From the sequence record OP172790: DNA of 64,000 nt; one strand, written 5' to 3'. The position numbers were made by a program, and so were the translations under genes. The notes beneath the pieces were generated by a model that worked only from the letters and a program-made list of their open reading frames with translations, had not been told where the DNA came from and ran no database searches. Every line of letters begins with the position of its first letter. Position 1 is the stretch's first letter. This document shows positions 15,722 through 27,640 of this stretch, one piece after another. The DNA comes from Escherichia phage ECO319P1.

Positions 15722-17521
15722 ATGTCAAAAGTATACGGAGCTAAACGGATTATCGGTGACTCACCTTGCCCAACTTGTACAGCGGCAGGTCGTGACAGAA
15801 CCGGTAATCACTTGCAACACTGGATTAACGATGATACAGGCGAAGAGTGGGTTTATTGCGGACGTGATGGTTACTATGAAAAGGTAACTGATGCAAACCG
15901 TGCTGACCTTGAATCTGTTCGTCATGTTCATCGTGAATTAACTGATGAAGAACGTGCAGCGGTTCTCGCTGAGGTTGACGAGTTGCCAATTCAGGAACTC
16001 ACATCTCGTGGTATCCGAAAGGAAATCGCTGAACGTTATGGTGTTCGTGTTGGCCTGTCCAGCACTAACCGTGAACAAATCTCTCACTTCTATCCGAAAG
16101 AGAAAGATGGTGAGGTGGTCGCTTATAAAGTTCGTAGTCTTGAGCCGAAGTATTTCTATGCGGTTGGTTCAGGTAGCGGATGTGATTTCTTTGGCATGTC
16201 TCAGGCTCGTCTGGGTGATGTGTACAGTGGCAAACTGTTCGTATTCGAAGATGAACTGAGTGCAATGTCAGGTTTCCAAGCTCTCATTGACGCATCCAAG
16301 TCAACTTACAAACCAGCATGTGTGGCTTTGCCAGATGGTGCAGGTTCGGCAGCAAGTGCATTTGCACGTTGTCGTCAGTTTGTTGAGTCATTCCAAGATA
16401 TCGTGGTCTGTATGGATAACGATGAAGCGGGTGATGATGCAGTTAACAAGCTGAGAGCGATGTATCCAAACATCAAGATTGCTCGTATTCCGAAGGGTAT
16501 CTACGGTGACGGTAAGCATATCAAAGACGCCAATGACATGATTATGGCTAAGCGTTCTTTGGAGTTAAACAACTGCTTACGCTTCAATGCTGCAAAAGAA
16601 TCTCCAGCAGGTTCAACAACTGTAGCGGAATGTATTGAAGATGCGCTGAAGAAACCTGAATGGGGTCTGAGTTATCCGTGGAAAGGTCTTACTGACTTAA
16701 CCTTTGGTTTACGTTATGGTGAGGTGATTGCAATTGGTGGTGGTGTAGGTGGTGGTAAAACATTACTGGCACACGAACTGAGTGCTCACTTAATCAACGT
16801 TCACAAAGAGAAAGTTGGTGCATTCATGTTGGAAGAAACTGTAGGTAATACCATCAAGAACATTGCTGGTAAATCTGCAAATATTCCATTCCATCGTCCA
16901 GATGCTGAGTTCGACCCAGAACTGCTGAAAAGCGAAGCACTGAAATACGATGGTCACTTGTTCCTGTATCGTAACTTCGGTCAAAACGATTGGGAAGATA
17001 TCAAACGTTGTATGCGTTTCTGGGTTGTTGAACATGGTGTCAAGTTCATCTTCCTCGATAACATCACAGCATTGGTATCACACTTGACAGCAACTGAGAT
17101 TAACACTGAAGTTGCGAAGATTGCTGTTGAGTTGGCAGGTATGTGTAACGAGTTGGACTTCACTTGTTTTGTATTTAGCCACTTGAACCCACCGAAAGGT
17201 GGTGCTCCTCACGAGGAAGGTGGTCAAGTACAAGAGGTGCAGTTCACGGGTTCCCGTGCTCTGATGCGTTTCTCTCAGTTAATTCTGGGCTTTGAACGCA
17301 ACAAGCAGGCAGATGGTGATGCTCGTAACCTTTCTCAGATTCGTCTGTTGAAAGACCGTAACTTCGGGCAGACAGGTCTTGTACCAACATCTTATAATCC
17401 AGTGACAGGCCGCTTAACACAGCGTCGTGATGAAGATTATGACCCGAAAAATCCGTTCCGCTTACCGGGTGAGCATGAGGACGACATGCAGGAAGATAAT
17501 GGAAAGGATAAACCATTTTGA
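15722..17521 (+). CDS. DNA primase-helicase (T7 gp4-like)
   Basis: N-terminal Cys4 zinc-binding element (CPTC...C..C-type), TOPRIM-like middle, DnaB-type Walker A GGGVGGGKT and helicase motifs. Confidence 0.85.
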   Translation: MSKVYGAKRIIGDSPCPTCTAAGRDRTGNHLQHWINDDTGEEWVYCGRDGYYEKVTDANRADLESVRHVHRELTDEERAAVLAEVDELPIQELTSRGIRKEIAERYGVRVGLSSTNREQISHFYPKEKDGEVVAYKVRSLEPKYFYAVGSGSGCDFFGMSQARLGDVYSGKLFVFEDELSAMSGFQALIDASKSTYKPACVALPDGAGSAASAFARCRQFVESFQDIVVCMDNDEAGDDAVNKLRAMYPNIKIARIPKGIYGDGKHIKDANDMIMAKRSLELNNCLRFNAAKESPAGSTTVAECIEDALKKPEWGLSYPWKGLTDLTFGLRYGEVIAIGGGVGGGKTLLAHELSAHLINVHKEKVGAFMLEETVGNTIKNIAGKSANIPFHRPDAEFDPELLKSEALKYDGHLFLYRNFGQNDWEDIKRCMRFWVVEHGVKFIFLDNITALVSHLTATEINTEVAKIAVELAGMCNELDFTCFVFSHLNPPKGGAPHEEGGQVQEVQFTGSRALMRFSQLILGFERNKQADGDARNLSQIRLLKDRNFGQTGLVPTSYNPVTGRLTQRRDEDYDPKNPFRLPGEHEDDMQEDNGKDKPF

Positions 17522-18012
17522 TTAAACTTGCAGCCACGGATATTGAAACGAATGGATTGTACTTTGATGTAAATCTATTTCACTGTGCATGGATTGTGGA
17601 GCCATTAACCGGAAAACGGTTTGGCTTCCGTCCAGACCAACTTAAAGAATACGTTGAGAAGTTAATGACTTATGACATTCTCATTGGTCACAACGTAATC
17701 GACTATGACTTCCCAACTATTAAGAAACTTTGTCCGGGATTTGAATGTCCGGCTGTTTTTGATACGTTGGTTCTTAGTCGTATGTTGGAACCAGACAGAC
17801 CACAAGGTCACTCGTTGAAATCTTGGGGTGTAGCTCTTGGTTTGCTGAAAGGTGATTATGGTGAACAGGAAGATGCGTGGGACGTATTCACAGAGGACAT
17901 GTATGTTTACTGTGAACGAGACGTTGACGTAACGGTTCTGCTCTATAAACACCTGTGTGAAAAGGCCGGTTTTGACTGGCAAAATCCACCATCAAATACT
18001 TTCAAATTCTGA
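17518..18012 (+). CDS. 3'-5' exonuclease domain protein of family-A DNA polymerase (stand-alone)
   Basis: TTG start with AAAGGA RBS; DIETNGL (Exo I), GHNVIDYD (Exo II), YCERDVDV (Exo III) aligning with T7 DNA polymerase N-terminus. Confidence 0.8.
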   Translation: MIKLAATDIETNGLYFDVNLFHCAWIVEPLTGKRFGFRPDQLKEYVEKLMTYDILIGHNVIDYDFPTIKKLCPGFECPAVFDTLVLSRMLEPDRPQGHSLKSWGVALGLLKGDYGEQEDAWDVFTEDMYVYCERDVDVTVLLYKHLCEKAGFDWQNPPSNTFKF

Positions 18013-18030
18013 GTAAGGATACTCTGCGTT

Positions 18031-25790: not shown

Positions 25791-25804
25791 ACTAAGGAGA
25801 AGAT

Positions 25805-27640
25805 ATGGAAATCACATCAAGCTGGGACAAACCGTTCCAACTCGAACAGAAAGTGGCTCACATTATTAGCCAACAAGCAAAGCATGGATGCGACTTCAAT
25901 AGTCGTAATGCTCATTGGTATGTTCATCTGTTAACTGAACGTATCATCAACATTGATTTGCAGTTGGTTCCAACTCTGCCACCTATGATGCACAAAGGCA
26001 CTGAATACAAGGCTCCGTTCAAGATGAATGGTAAGCCGAAGGTGTTTGTCCAGAAGTATATGGACGCTCAAGGTCTGACAGAGGATATGGTAGGTGGCCC
26101 GTTTACAGCGGTGTGGTTTACCCCGTTCGACCCAAGTAAAACTTCACGTCTAAAAGATGTGATGTTGGACATGGGGTGGATGCCTACTGAATGGAACCAG
26201 AAGAAGATGCCGTTTCAACTTTGGACGTATAAAAAGCGTCTGGAGAAGACGACCTTCCGCAAGTTCATGGAAGAGCAGACAAGTACCGACGAACGTGAAC
26301 TATTTCTTCCCTTAGTTAATGGTTTTGTTGCTCAACATTTTGTTGGGAAATCAAAAGGTTACATGAAAGCAATCCTCAGTGCTCTGGGGTTTGATTTAAA
26401 GCGTGTACCGAATTTTGACCAGATTAAGAAGCGTCTTTTGTTGAGTCAGTTCTGGCCGACTTCTCCAAAAATCACTGAAGATTCATTTGAGTCAGTAAGT
26501 GAGGAAGAAGGTCATTCACTGAAACTCCTGAAAGAGCGTATGGTGTGGTCGCACCGTCGTTCACTGATTCAGGGTTTGATTGAACTGACTCGTCAGGATG
26601 GTAAAATCTCTGGTGAAGCTAACCCATGTGCAACTCCGACAGCACGTATGAGACACAAGGGTATTGTAAACATTCCAGCCGCAGGTGCTCCTTTCGGTGA
26701 AGAGTGTCGCTCATTGTTCCGTGGTAATAAACGTACTGGAACAAAAGCAAAGATTATTCATAAACTTACTGCACAGATGGTTGAATCTGGTAAGTTTCGT
26801 CGTAAACCGTTCACTAATATCATGCAGGTTTCAAATGGTAAAGGTGGATGGGAAGACGAAGGTCATGTATCATTCCTGATTCCAGCGGGGCAAGATGCTT
26901 TCGTTGGTGGTGATGGTGCAGGTCTTGAACTTCGAATGTTGACTCACTACCTGATTGCAGTATCCAAAATGCTTCTGAAAGACGCTGAGGAAGCGGGTAA
27001 TGATAAGTTAATCCGTTACTACGGTGCCGCTTTACAGTCAGCATATGAGTATCGTGAGGTTCTTCTGAATGGTGATATTCACAGTCACAACCAGAAGCTC
27101 GCAGGTCTGCCAACTCGTAAGTCAGCTAAGACGTTTATCTACGCATTCTTATATGGTGCTGGTGATGCGAACTTGGGTGGTCAACTTGGTGCAGGCCGTG
27201 AAGAGGGTGCAGCTTTACGTGCTCGATTCTTGAAAGAATGTCCTTGTATTCCAGTTCTGATTGAGTGGGTTCAGGATTTTGCCAAGAAGAATGGTTGGGT
27301 TCCGGCAATTGATGGTCGTAAACTTATCATGCGTCGTGACCCTTTCAGTGGCGAAGTTATGGCTCACAAAGCACTGAATACAATGTTACAAGCAGCAGGT
27401 TCAATCGTGATGAAATATGCAGGTTGTTATCTGACTTCTTGGAATGCTCGTGATTGCTTAGATGCACATCAGGTTATCATGATGCACGATGAATATCAGT
27501 TCACTTGCAAATGGGAAGATGTTGAAGCTTTACGTCGTAACATTGACTCGTGTGTTAAGAAAGCTGGTGAATATTTGAAAATGGAATGTCCATTAGCGTC
27601 TGACTCAATGTTAGGTGCAAACTGGCTTCATACCCACTAA
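25805..27640 (+). CDS. DNA polymerase, family A, polymerase domain only
   Basis: AAGGAG RBS; motif A GGDGAGLELR, motif C HDEYQ; no exonuclease motifs in this ORF. Confidence 0.9.
   Translation: MEITSSWDKPFQLEQKVAHIISQQAKHGCDFNSRNAHWYVHLLTERIINIDLQLVPTLPPMMHKGTEYKAPFKMNGKPKVFVQKYMDAQGLTEDMVGGPFTAVWFTPFDPSKTSRLKDVMLDMGWMPTEWNQKKMPFQLWTYKKRLEKTTFRKFMEEQTSTDERELFLPLVNGFVAQHFVGKSKGYMKAILSALGFDLKRVPNFDQIKKRLLLSQFWPTSPKITEDSFESVSEEEGHSLKLLKERMVWSHRRSLIQGLIELTRQDGKISGEANPCATPTARMRHKGIVNIPAAGAPFGEECRSLFRGNKRTGTKAKIIHKLTAQMVESGKFRRKPFTNIMQVSNGKGGWEDEGHVSFLIPAGQDAFVGGDGAGLELRMLTHYLIAVSKMLLKDAEEAGNDKLIRYYGAALQSAYEYREVLLNGDIHSHNQKLAGLPTRKSAKTFIYAFLYGAGDANLGGQLGAGREEGAALRARFLKECPCIPVLIEWVQDFAKKNGWVPAIDGRKLIMRRDPFSGEVMAHKALNTMLQAAGSIVMKYAGCYLTSWNARDCLDAHQVIMMHDEYQFTCKWEDVEALRRNIDSCVKKAGEYLKMECPLASDSMLGANWLHTH

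What the first reader, a model, noticed from the sequence alone, without database searches (positions are those of the whole stretch)
17518..27640. Family-A DNA polymerase split into separately encoded exonuclease and polymerase genes
The 3'-5' exonuclease domain (Exo I/II/III motifs, 17518-18012, TTG start) lies directly after the primase-helicase, while the polymerase domain (motifs A and C, 25805-27640) is 7.8 kb downstream with about 15 genes between. The holoenzyme would have to assemble from two polypeptides unless the exonuclease acts alone.
Basis: partly seen in the sequence, partly recalled or inferred. Interest (0 to 1): 0.5.

Follow-up and report, generated by a model that had tools for sequence, protein, structure and literature searches.

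The report
Known split phage DNA polymerase
This phage encodes the proofreading exonuclease and the polymerase of a T7-type DNA polymerase as two intact genes 7.8 kb apart, which is real but is the normal, already annotated and published arrangement for its whole phage group.

Summary
ORF 17518-18012 (164 aa, TTG start overlapping the primase-helicase stop) is a complete DEDDy 3'-5' exonuclease domain. ORF 25805-27640 (611 aa) is an exonuclease-less family-A polymerase with motifs A, B and C. Both match T7 gp5 best and together tile it, with the break in gp5's interdomain linker (about residues 192-199). Between them lie 7,792 nt and about 15 genes. Both genes are under strong purifying selection (dN/dS about 0.05-0.07). 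I found no second polymerase in the window, and none is annotated in the complete genome of the nearest relative. There is no intron, intein or frameshift signal.

The window is a Crifsvirus-like phage (Grimontviridae), about 89% identical to Cronobacter phages GAP52 and A24. RefSeq already labels the orthologues 'DNA polymerase exonuclease subunit' and 'DNA polymerase I'. The same helicase-exo ... pol order occurs in 7-11, BUCT695, SU7 (a phiEco32 relative) and PaP3. It is stated in print for the LUZ24 group and phiEco32 (2012) and for Kuravirus and its relatives (2023).

Most likely the two proteins form a non-covalent T7-like holoenzyme. That step is inferred, and I found no biochemical test of it. 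Novelty: already known. Interest: low.

The parts
15722..17521 (+). T7 gp4-type primase-helicase (599 aa) with an acidic C-terminal tail ending in Phe (...EHEDDMQEDNGKDKPF)
   Evidence: Pfam DnaB_C, Helic-prim_T7_N and Toprim_2. tblastn with T7 gp4 gives E 4e-32. The tail ending in KPF or RPF is conserved in GAP52, A24, BUCT695 and 7-11. T7 gp4 ends ...DTDF.
17518..18012 (+). Stand-alone DEDDy 3'-5' exonuclease ('DNA polymerase exonuclease subunit'), 164 aa, with a TTG start overlapping the helicase stop
   Evidence: Supported. AF2 model pLDDT is 95.5. The best fold match is the T7 gp5 exo domain, TM about 0.8, E 3e-12. dN/dS is about 0.05. It is 94.5% identical to GAP52 gp047.
17501..17521 (+). 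Translational-coupling junction: a Shine-Dalgarno-like AAGGA inside the last helicase codons, then TTG overlapping TGA
   Evidence: Sequence. The same layout occurs in GAP52 and A24, and BUCT695 has an overlapping TAATG.
18013..25804 (+). Intervening 7.8 kb with about 15 genes: dCTP deaminase, thioredoxin, Dps/ferritin-like protein, NrdD, macro domain, RtcB, NrdG, MazG-like protein and small ORFs
   Evidence: ORFs and translations. Pfam matches. Orthologous annotation in GAP52 and A24. No Rfam match at E<=0.1.
18667..18987 (+). Phage-encoded thioredoxin (likely start at the ATG at 18703); a candidate processivity cofactor by analogy with T7
   Evidence: Pfam PF00085, E 1.8e-18. The analogy was proposed for the relative Privateer in PMC7881722. 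Its role here is inferred only.
25805..27640 (+). Exonuclease-less family-A DNA polymerase (611 aa) with its own strong Shine-Dalgarno sequence (AAGGAG 7 nt before the ATG)
   Evidence: Supported. AF2 model pLDDT is 88 and pTM 0.77. The best fold match is T7 gp5, E 8e-27. dN/dS is about 0.07.
31169..32065 (+). Separately encoded 5'-3' exonuclease (FEN-like), the third piece of a Pol I-equivalent activity set
   Evidence: Weak Pfam PF02739 match, E 1.2e-4, below the curated cutoff. The GAP52 orthologue gp075 is annotated as exonuclease, similar to the 7-11 5'-3' exonuclease.

Best explanation
This is the ordinary two-gene version of a T7 gp5-like replicative DNA polymerase. It is carried by phages of the Grimontviridae, of the phiEco32/Kuravirus group (Gordonclarkvirinae) and of the LUZ24/PaP3 group (Bruynoghevirus).

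An ancestral gene 5 sat just downstream of the primase-helicase gene, as in T7. It was cut at the linker between its exonuclease and polymerase domains. The exonuclease half stayed attached to the helicase gene, and here it is translationally coupled to it through an overlapping TTG/TGA. Nucleotide-metabolism and RNA-repair genes then accumulated between the halves: 1.7 kb in PaP3, 7.8 kb here and 9 kb in SU7.

Shown here: both halves are complete, carry all catalytic residues, are under strong purifying selection, have their own start, stop and ribosome-binding signals, and always occur together.

Inferred: the 164-aa exonuclease binds the 611-aa polymerase non-covalently and recreates the gp5 architecture. 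A mismatched primer end could then shuttle between the two active sites within one complex, much as epsilon serves alpha in E. coli Pol III. The helicase's acidic tail ending in Phe would recruit the polymerase as in T7. The phage thioredoxin may act as a processivity factor.
For: 1. The two ORFs tile T7 gp5 once each. gp5 residues 1-198 fall on 17527-18003 and residues 319-704 on 26081-27637. T7 gp5 is the best solved-structure match for both parts.

2. The break maps to the gp5 linker. The exo tail '...FDWQNPP' aligns with gp5 '...HYFPP', and the pol N-terminus 'W..PF.LE.KVA' aligns with gp5 'FWSES..IEHRAA'. Residues at both new termini are conserved: P157 and P158 are nearly invariant in the exo family, and E14, Q24 and G28 are invariant in the pol family.

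3. dN/dS against GAP52 and A24 is 0.046/0.051 for exo, 0.075/0.067 for pol and 0.055/0.046 for the helicase.

4. The DEDDy residues are invariant or nearly so in 46 exo homologues. Motif A, B and C catalytic residues are invariant in 45 pol homologues.

5. All 120 best pol homologues are 350-618 aa, all shorter than fused gp5 (704 aa), so none has room for an added exo domain. All 85 exo homologues are 101-187 aa. At least 11 exo/pol pairs report the same longest-contig length, for example 119109, 92531, 80406, 71331, 52998, 52261, 28562 and 20510, which points to co-occurrence on the same contigs.

6. The helicase-exo ... pol order holds in GAP52, A24, 7-11, BUCT695, SU7 and PaP3.

7. Similarity falls in parallel for the two parts. 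Exo: 94, 70, 50, 37, 31%. Pol: 94, 77, 47, 41, 28%. The series runs Crifsvirus, 7-11, the phiEco32/Kuravirus group, Bruynoghevirus, T7-like.

8. The split is stated in the literature (PMC9965538; PMC3517423).
Against: No experiment or structure shows that the two proteins bind each other. I found no biochemical paper on any member of this clade.

The exo gene is coupled to the helicase gene, not to the pol gene. Several terminator-like hairpins lie between exo and pol (19711-19730, 21903-21926, 25037-25060). The two genes may therefore be on different transcripts and made in different amounts.

The polymerase has clade-specific insertions of unknown role, at roughly residues 137-220, 313-358 and 387-411.
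Confidence: 0.7

Rival explanations
1. The exonuclease works on its own and forms no stable complex with the polymerase. It could be a distributive trans-acting proofreader, or a DNA-end processing or host-DNA degrading nuclease. The polymerase itself would then be a non-proofreading enzyme.
For: The exo gene is separate, lies 7.8 kb from pol, and is probably in another transcription unit. Stand-alone DEDD nucleases such as TREX-like proteins, diDNase and NrnC appear among the lower structural matches. Stand-alone exos of this type are common: 42 of the 150 best representatives are 200 aa or shorter.
Against: The closest sequence and fold match by about six orders of magnitude in E-value is the exo domain of T7 gp5, not a free nuclease. 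The linker remnants at the exo C-terminus and the pol N-terminus are conserved. Exo and pol co-occur in every genome examined.
Confidence: 0.2
2. The exonuclease is a partner of the primase-helicase rather than of the polymerase. It would be delivered to the fork through the helicase, for example to trim primers or 3' flaps.
For: Helicase-exo adjacency is the most conserved feature of the arrangement. Start and stop overlap in Crifsvirus, BUCT695, SU7 and PaP3. Coupled translation suggests matched amounts of the two proteins.
Against: The adjacency is equally explained as a relic of the T7 order, gene 4 then gene 5. In 7-11 an endonuclease VII gene sits between the two genes without loss of exo. 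No sequence feature points to a helicase contact.
Confidence: 0.07
3. The two ORFs are rejoined into one polypeptide or one mRNA, by group I intron splicing, a split intein, ribosomal frameshifting or bypassing.
For: Relatives do carry intron-like interruptions elsewhere in the pol gene. In BUCT695 the junction is seamless inside motif B, with a weak Rfam group I hit. LUZ24 has an intron according to PMC3517423.
Against: The gap is 7.8 kb and holds about 15 conserved protein genes. There is no Rfam match at E<=0.1 in 17400-27700. The exo (164 aa) and the pol N-terminus leave no room for intein halves, because they abut gp5 residues ~192 and ~196. Each ORF has its own start, stop and Shine-Dalgarno sequence. 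No slippery site links the helicase and exo frames.
Confidence: 0.01
4. The exonuclease ORF is a decaying remnant, or the split is an assembly artefact.
For: The unusual TTG start and the short length could suggest a pseudogene.
Against: dN/dS is about 0.05 and there are no internal stops. The catalytic residues are invariant. The same ORF is present in dozens of independently sequenced phages and metagenomic contigs. The AF2 model is complete and confident, pLDDT 95.5.
Confidence: 0.01

Closest known systems
Cronobacter phages vB_CsaP_GAP52 (gp047 'DNA polymerase exonuclease subunit', gp064 'DNA polymerase I') and A24; Grimontviridae, Crifsvirus
   Same: They are orthologous genes. The exo is 94.5% (GAP52) and 92.7% (A24) identical at the amino-acid level by tblastn, and the pol 93% (GAP52) and 95% (A24). 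ORF lengths are identical (495 and 1836 nt). The TTG start overlaps the helicase stop in the same way, and the gene order is the same.
   Different: Nucleotide identity is about 89%, so this is probably a different species. The window lacks the three homing/HNH endonuclease genes that GAP52 carries in this module: gp054, gp060 and gp071.
Split PolA of Salmonella phage 7-11, Aeromonas phage BUCT695, the phiEco32/Kuravirus group (Gordonclarkvirinae) and the LUZ24/PaP3/tf group (Bruynoghevirus)
   Same: The order is primase-helicase, stand-alone 3'-5' exo, intervening genes, exo-less pol, then a separate 5'-3' exo. It is described in PMC9965538 and PMC3517423.
   Different: The gap size and content differ: 1.7 kb with 6 small ORFs in PaP3, about 6.7 kb in 7-11 and 9.0 kb with 21 genes in SU7. 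In 7-11 an endonuclease VII gene separates the helicase from exo. BUCT695 and SU7 carry extra endonuclease-associated interruptions inside pol, which the window lacks.
Bacteriophage T7 gene 5 DNA polymerase (with E. coli thioredoxin and gp4)
   Same: It is the best sequence and fold match for both parts. It shares the DEDDy exo motifs and pol motifs A, B and C, including Tyr at the gp5 Y526 position. The genes have the same order relative to the primase-helicase gene. The helicase has a similar acidic tail ending in Phe.
   Different: T7 gp5 is a single 704-aa chain. Here there are two chains of 164 and 611 aa. Identity is only about 28-30%. The thioredoxin-binding loop region is shorter and predicted to be folded. 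The pol carries three extra insertions. The thioredoxin is phage-encoded.
E. coli DNA polymerase III core (alpha polymerase plus epsilon DnaQ proofreader)
   Same: It is a functional analogy only. Polymerase and 3'-5' proofreading exonuclease are separate polypeptides that act as one complex (established knowledge).
   Different: Pol III is a C-family polymerase with a DEDDh exonuclease and is unrelated in sequence to the pol here. The exo here is DEDDy and of PolA origin.

Membership tests
Family A DNA polymerase, T7 gp5-like (polymerase domain) | Pfam PF00476 at or above the gathering score | tested here: met
   84.4 bits against a cutoff of 34.3, E 9.7e-24.
Family A DNA polymerase, T7 gp5-like (polymerase domain) | Motif A (D-x3-LELR), motif B (R-x3-K-x3-Y-x3-YG) and motif C (HDE) | tested here: met
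   D370/L374-R377, R438/K442/Y446/Y450-G451 and H561-D562-E563 are all invariant in 45 homologues.
Family A DNA polymerase, T7 gp5-like (polymerase domain) | Right-hand fold (thumb, palm, fingers) superposable on gp5 | tested here: met
   AF2 pLDDT 88. Foldseek against the PDB puts T7 gp5 chains at ranks 1-27, best E 8e-27, TM about 0.6.
Family A DNA polymerase, T7 gp5-like (polymerase domain) | Template-directed DNA synthesis activity | not testable with these tools
   Needs an enzyme assay.
DEDDy 3'-5' exonuclease domain of PolA (PF01612) | Exo I (DxE), Exo II (N-x3-YD) and Exo III (Y-x3-D) residues | tested here: met
   D8, E10, N59, D64 and D135 are invariant, and Y131 is present in at least 90% of 46 sequences.
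DEDDy 3'-5' exonuclease domain of PolA (PF01612) | Pfam score at or above the gathering score, and a fold match | tested here: met
   26.2 bits against a cutoff of 23.6. AF2 pLDDT 95.5. T7 gp5 exo domain at TM 0.8, E 3e-12.
DEDDy 3'-5' exonuclease domain of PolA (PF01612) | 3'-5' exonuclease activity on mismatched primer ends | not testable with these tools
   Needs an enzyme assay.
Two-gene (exo subunit plus pol) PolA of phiEco32-, 7-11- and LUZ24-type phages | Stand-alone exo gene immediately downstream of the primase-helicase gene, same strand | tested here: met
   Helicase at 15722-17521 and exo at 17518-18012, with a 4-nt overlap. The same holds in GAP52, A24, BUCT695, SU7 and PaP3.
Two-gene (exo subunit plus pol) PolA of phiEco32-, 7-11- and LUZ24-type phages | Exo-less pol gene further downstream, and no fused PolA in the genome | tested here: met
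   Pol residue ~7 aligns to gp5 ~199. gp5 hits the window only at the two ORFs. There is no other polymerase among 20 other large ORFs or in the full GAP52 annotation. About 10 kb of the genome lies outside the window and is judged only through GAP52.
Two-gene (exo subunit plus pol) PolA of phiEco32-, 7-11- and LUZ24-type phages | Orthology to annotated members | tested here: met
   Exo is 94.5% identical to GAP52 gp047, 69.5% to 7-11 gp082 and about 50% to Kuravirus. Pol is 93-95% identical to GAP52 and A24 and 77% to 7-11.
Two-gene (exo subunit plus pol) PolA of phiEco32-, 7-11- and LUZ24-type phages | Physical association of the two gene products | not testable with these tools
No published test was found.
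Intron- or intein-interrupted polymerase gene | Ribozyme or intein sequence at the break and a seamless junction that restores one reading frame | tested here: not met
   No Rfam match in 17400-27700 at E<=0.1. The 7.8 kb holds about 15 genes. There are no spare residues for intein halves. By contrast, the BUCT695 internal interruption does show a seamless junction.

The most novel reading that the evidence does not exclude
The split may be more than a neutral relic. The exonuclease could be made in step with the primase-helicase and loaded at the fork through it. The clade-specific polymerase insertions (about residues 137-220 and 313-358) would then form a new docking module for the detachable proofreader, and possibly for the phage thioredoxin. 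That would give a family-A replisome whose proofreading subunit can exchange or be dosed independently of the polymerase.
Probability: 0.12. Interest if true: 0.5.

Novelty: already known. Interest (0 to 1): 0.15.

Why it matters
It matters little as a discovery. The arrangement is annotated in RefSeq for the nearest relatives and stated in at least two papers.

Its remaining value is as an untested natural experiment. It is a family-A replicase whose proofreading domain has been a separate protein for a long evolutionary time, across at least three phage groups. Showing how, or whether, the two pieces associate would tell us how much of gp5-type proofreading depends on covalent linkage. It could also supply a naturally exo-free T7-like polymerase plus an add-back proofreader for enzymology or biotechnology.

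Tried and rejected
No interface model exists as a result.

2. A helicase-exo fusion by frameshifting was considered. The exo frame has a TAA at 17509-17511. The only slip allowed on the TTTT run is +1, which leads into the wrong frame. Rejected from the sequence.

3. A split intein or an intron at the exo/pol break was rejected on lengths, alignment and an empty Rfam search.

4. I searched for a second polymerase. tblastn with T7 gp5, the exo and the pol against the window, plus Pfam on 20 other large ORFs, found none.

5. Savalia et al. 2008 (PMC2587145), the original phiEco32 paper, could not be read. Its content is cited only through PMC3517423.

6. Literature searches for biochemical work on this split enzyme found nothing relevant. 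One search failed on term syntax.

7. The promoter and terminator scan gave counts no higher than shuffled sequence. Only the long intergenic hairpins are mentioned, and only as suggestions.

8. Mirror-tree or co-evolution tests of exo against pol were considered and dropped. Too few paired genomes were available, and shared phylogeny would dominate the signal.

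
Full report
**What the window is.** The 11 kb around the finding is about 89% identical at the nucleotide level, over 94-96% of its length, to Cronobacter phages A24 and vB_CsaP_GAP52 (Grimontviridae, genus Crifsvirus). Replication and nucleotide-metabolism genes lie on the + strand. Structural genes (portal, terminase, tail) lie on the - strand. The window is therefore most of the genome of a phage related to 7-11 and GAP52.

**Checking the observation.**
- ORF 17518-18012 encodes 164 aa. Its TTG start overlaps the TGA stop of the 599-aa primase-helicase gene (...CCA TTT TGA read as T-TTG-A).
- An in-frame TAA at 17509-17511 excludes a start further upstream. An AAGGA Shine-Dalgarno-like element lies about 10 nt upstream, inside the last helicase codons.
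- The protein passes the Pfam threshold for the PolA 3'-5' exonuclease domain, PF01612 (26.2 bits against 23.6). Its best solved-structure relative is T7 gp5 residues 3-172 (E 2.5e-8).
- In an alignment of 46 family members, D8, E10, N59, D62, D64 and D135 are invariant and Y131 is nearly invariant. This is the full DEDDy Exo I/II/III set.
- The AlphaFold model is very confident (pLDDT 95.5). It superposes best on the exonuclease domain of T7 gp5 (TM about 0.8, E 3e-12). Free DEDD nucleases follow about six orders of magnitude behind.
- ORF 25805-27640 encodes 611 aa, preceded by a strong AAGGAG Shine-Dalgarno sequence. It matches PF00476 (84.4 bits against 34.3) and T7 gp5 (E 2.9e-38).
- The catalytic residues of motifs A (D370...LELR), B (R438, K442, Y446) and C (H561-D562-E563) are invariant in 45 homologues.
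- Its model (pLDDT 88, pTM 0.77) matches T7 gp5 first (E 8e-27).
- The gap between the two ORFs is 7,792 nt and contains 14-16 ORFs. These include dCTP deaminase, thioredoxin, a Dps/ferritin-like protein, NrdD, a macro-domain protein, RtcB, NrdG and a MazG-like protein.

**The two ORFs are halves of one ancestral gene.**
- tblastn with T7 gp5 places residues 1-198 on 17527-18003 and residues 319-704 on 26081-27637. It hits nothing else in 64 kb.
- When T7 gp5 and a fused pol from Pelagibacter phage HTVC309P are added to the family alignments, the exo ends at gp5 '...HYFPP' (about residue 192). The pol begins at gp5 '...TTFWSES' (about residue 199). The break is in the interdomain linker and no sequence is missing or duplicated.
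- Residues flanking the break are conserved on both sides. In the exo family F152, D153, P157 and P158 are nearly invariant. In the pol family the N-terminal consensus is W..PF.LE.KVA, with E14, Q24 and G28 invariant.
- Relative to gp5, the pol has a shorter, folded region in place of the thioredoxin-binding loop. It also has clade-specific insertions at about 137-220, 313-358 and 387-411.

**Neither half is decayed, and there is no spare polymerase.**
- dN/dS against GAP52 and A24 is 0.046/0.051 for exo, 0.075/0.067 for pol and 0.055/0.046 for the helicase.
- Pfam scans of 20 other large ORFs found no other polymerase.
- The complete GAP52 annotation lists only these two polymerase genes. It also covers the roughly 10 kb of genome that lies outside the window.

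**The halves are not rejoined.**
- Rfam finds nothing at E<=0.1 in 17400-27700.
- The intervening DNA is made of conserved protein genes.
- The alignment leaves no residues for intein halves.
- The frames at the helicase/exo junction do not allow a plausible frameshift fusion.

**Distribution of the split.**
- tblastn of the exo against 50,697 phage records gives stand-alone orthologues in GAP52, A24, pSal-SNUABM-01, 7-11, SE131, SeKF_80, BUCT695, Privateer, vB_CsaP_009, Vp_R1, the LAh phages and many phiEco32/Kuravirus-group phages. RefSeq often labels them 'DNA polymerase exonuclease subunit'. More distant stand-alone orthologues occur in the PaP3/LUZ24-type phages.
- Locus inspection shows the same order in several phages: primase-helicase, exo, intervening genes, exo-less pol, then a 5'-3' exonuclease. 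This holds for 7-11 (about 6.7 kb gap, with an endonuclease VII gene inserted between helicase and exo), BUCT695, SU7 (9.0 kb, 21 genes) and PaP3 (1.7 kb, 6 small ORFs).
- In T7 and in Pelagibacter phage HTVC309P the gene is fused and sits in the same place after the primase-helicase gene.
- In the large protein database all 120 best pol homologues are 350-618 aa, all shorter than fused gp5 (704 aa), and all 85 exo homologues are 101-187 aa. At least 11 exo/pol pairs report identical longest-contig lengths, which indicates co-occurrence.
- A profile search of 1.84 billion representatives found 4373 relatives. Among the best 150, 42 are 200 aa or shorter and 69 are longer than 500 aa with the exo at the N-terminus. 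Of the top 20, 18 are stand-alone.
- Similarity falls in parallel for exo and pol across the groups, which fits co-divergence after a single old fission in this lineage. Whether other stand-alone exos arose independently is not resolved.

**What is already known.**
[quoted passage not shown] It adds that the same is seen in 7-11, Privateer, Vp_R1 and BUCT695.
- PMC3517423 (2012) states that in all LUZ24-group phages the polymerase and the 3'-exonuclease 'are represented by separate genes'. It says the same was reported for phiEco32 by Savalia et al. 2008.
- PaP3's deposited annotation already names 'DNA polymerse2' (as spelled in the record) and 'DNA polymerase1'.
- I found no paper that tests whether the two proteins associate.

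**How it most likely works.**
- Shown: there are two intact, selected, independently translated genes. The exo is translationally coupled to the helicase in Crifsvirus, where all three genomes share ...AAGGAxAAACCxTT-TTG-A. BUCT695 has TAATG.
- Inferred, at about 0.7: the exo binds the pol non-covalently and restores a gp5-like enzyme with intramolecular proofreading.
- The helicase tail is acidic and ends in Phe, as in T7 gp4. By analogy it is the polymerase-recruiting element.
- The phage thioredoxin may serve as a processivity factor, as proposed for Privateer. It could equally serve nucleotide metabolism.
- Against tight coupling of expression, terminator-like hairpins lie between the two genes at 19711-19730, 21903-21926 and 25037-25060. 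The scan as a whole is no richer than shuffled sequence.
- The main rival (about 0.2) is an exo that acts without stable binding to the pol. Helicase-tethered exo (about 0.07), rejoining, and decay or artefact (about 0.01 each) are unlikely.

**Verdict.** This is the standard, published gene arrangement of the clade, in what is probably a new Crifsvirus species. Novelty: already known. Interest is low. The only open point is the untested biochemistry of a naturally two-piece family-A replicase.

Noticed in passing
L003 (Aeromonas phage BUCT695) 20064-20676: The BUCT695 pol gene is interrupted by a 613-nt insert carrying an endonuclease ORF (20164-20589). The coding sequence resumes seamlessly inside motif B: ...RKSAKTF | IYAFLYG..., which are window-pol residues 444 and 445. 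There is a weak full-length Rfam group I intron hit at 20053-20626 (22.6 bits, E 0.004, below the gathering score). The record annotates this as two 'DNA polymerase' CDS, but it looks like an intron rather than a second protein split.
   Followed up: partly
L010 (Escherichia phage SU7) 22561-25012: The SU7 pol is annotated as a 570-aa CDS, an overlapping HNH endonuclease gene (24264-24740) and a 51-aa 'DNA polymerase' fragment (24857-25012). This is a different, C-terminal interruption site. Many metagenomic relatives are N-terminal pol fragments of about 445-463 aa with no precomputed Pfam hit. Endonuclease-associated interruptions of this pol therefore seem frequent.
   Followed up: no
window 17470-17521: The primase-helicase ends in an acidic run followed by ...DKPF. 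The terminal PF is conserved in GAP52, A24, BUCT695 and 7-11. It resembles the acidic tail ending in Phe of T7 gp4 (...DTDF), which binds gp5/thioredoxin.
   Followed up: partly
window 12620-13585, 21980-22483, 22483-23610: An RNA-repair gene set sits within the replication module: an Rnl2-type RNA ligase, a macro-domain protein and an RtcB ligase. This may be a counter-measure to host tRNA-cleaving defences.
   Followed up: no
window 21879-21980, 24534-25036, 29483-29559 compared with L001 (GAP52) gp054, gp060, gp071: GAP52 carries three homing/HNH endonuclease genes in this module: after nrdD, before gp061 and before gp072. The window has no room for any of them. The two phages therefore differ by mobile endonuclease content.
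   Followed up: partly
window 18031-18050: A perfect 6-bp hairpin, GGGTAC-TATAATAT-GTACCC, with a TATAAT in its loop and a T-rich tail, lies immediately after the exo stop. It could be a weak terminator or a promoter element. A 30-codon ORF follows at 18064-18156 (GAP52 annotates a 37-codon hypothetical ORF, gp048, at the equivalent position).
   Followed up: no
window 19711-19730, 21903-21926, 25037-25060, 30352-30367: GC-rich hairpins (6-10 bp stems) followed by T-rich tracts lie in intergenic positions at gene ends on the + strand. They suggest several transcription units within the replication module, placing exo and pol on different units.
   Followed up: no
window 62266-62696 (- strand): There are three tRNA genes (Rfam, 63-67 bits). 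GAP52 annotates only two (Asn and Trp) at the equivalent place.
   Followed up: no
window 4317-10913: A phiEco32-type cluster is present: COOH-NH2 ligase, amidoligase, glutamine amidotransferase and an ATP-grasp (RimK-like) enzyme. It is conserved in 7-11, SU7, BUCT695 and PaP3, and its function is unknown.
   Followed up: no
window 25805-27640, pol residues ~137-220 and ~313-358: Two well-folded insertions (pLDDT about 85-94) are specific to this clade relative to T7 gp5 and the HTVC309P pol. One is helical and the other a small beta-sheet just before motif A. Their function is unknown. They are candidate docking surfaces for the detached exonuclease or for thioredoxin.
   Followed up: partly
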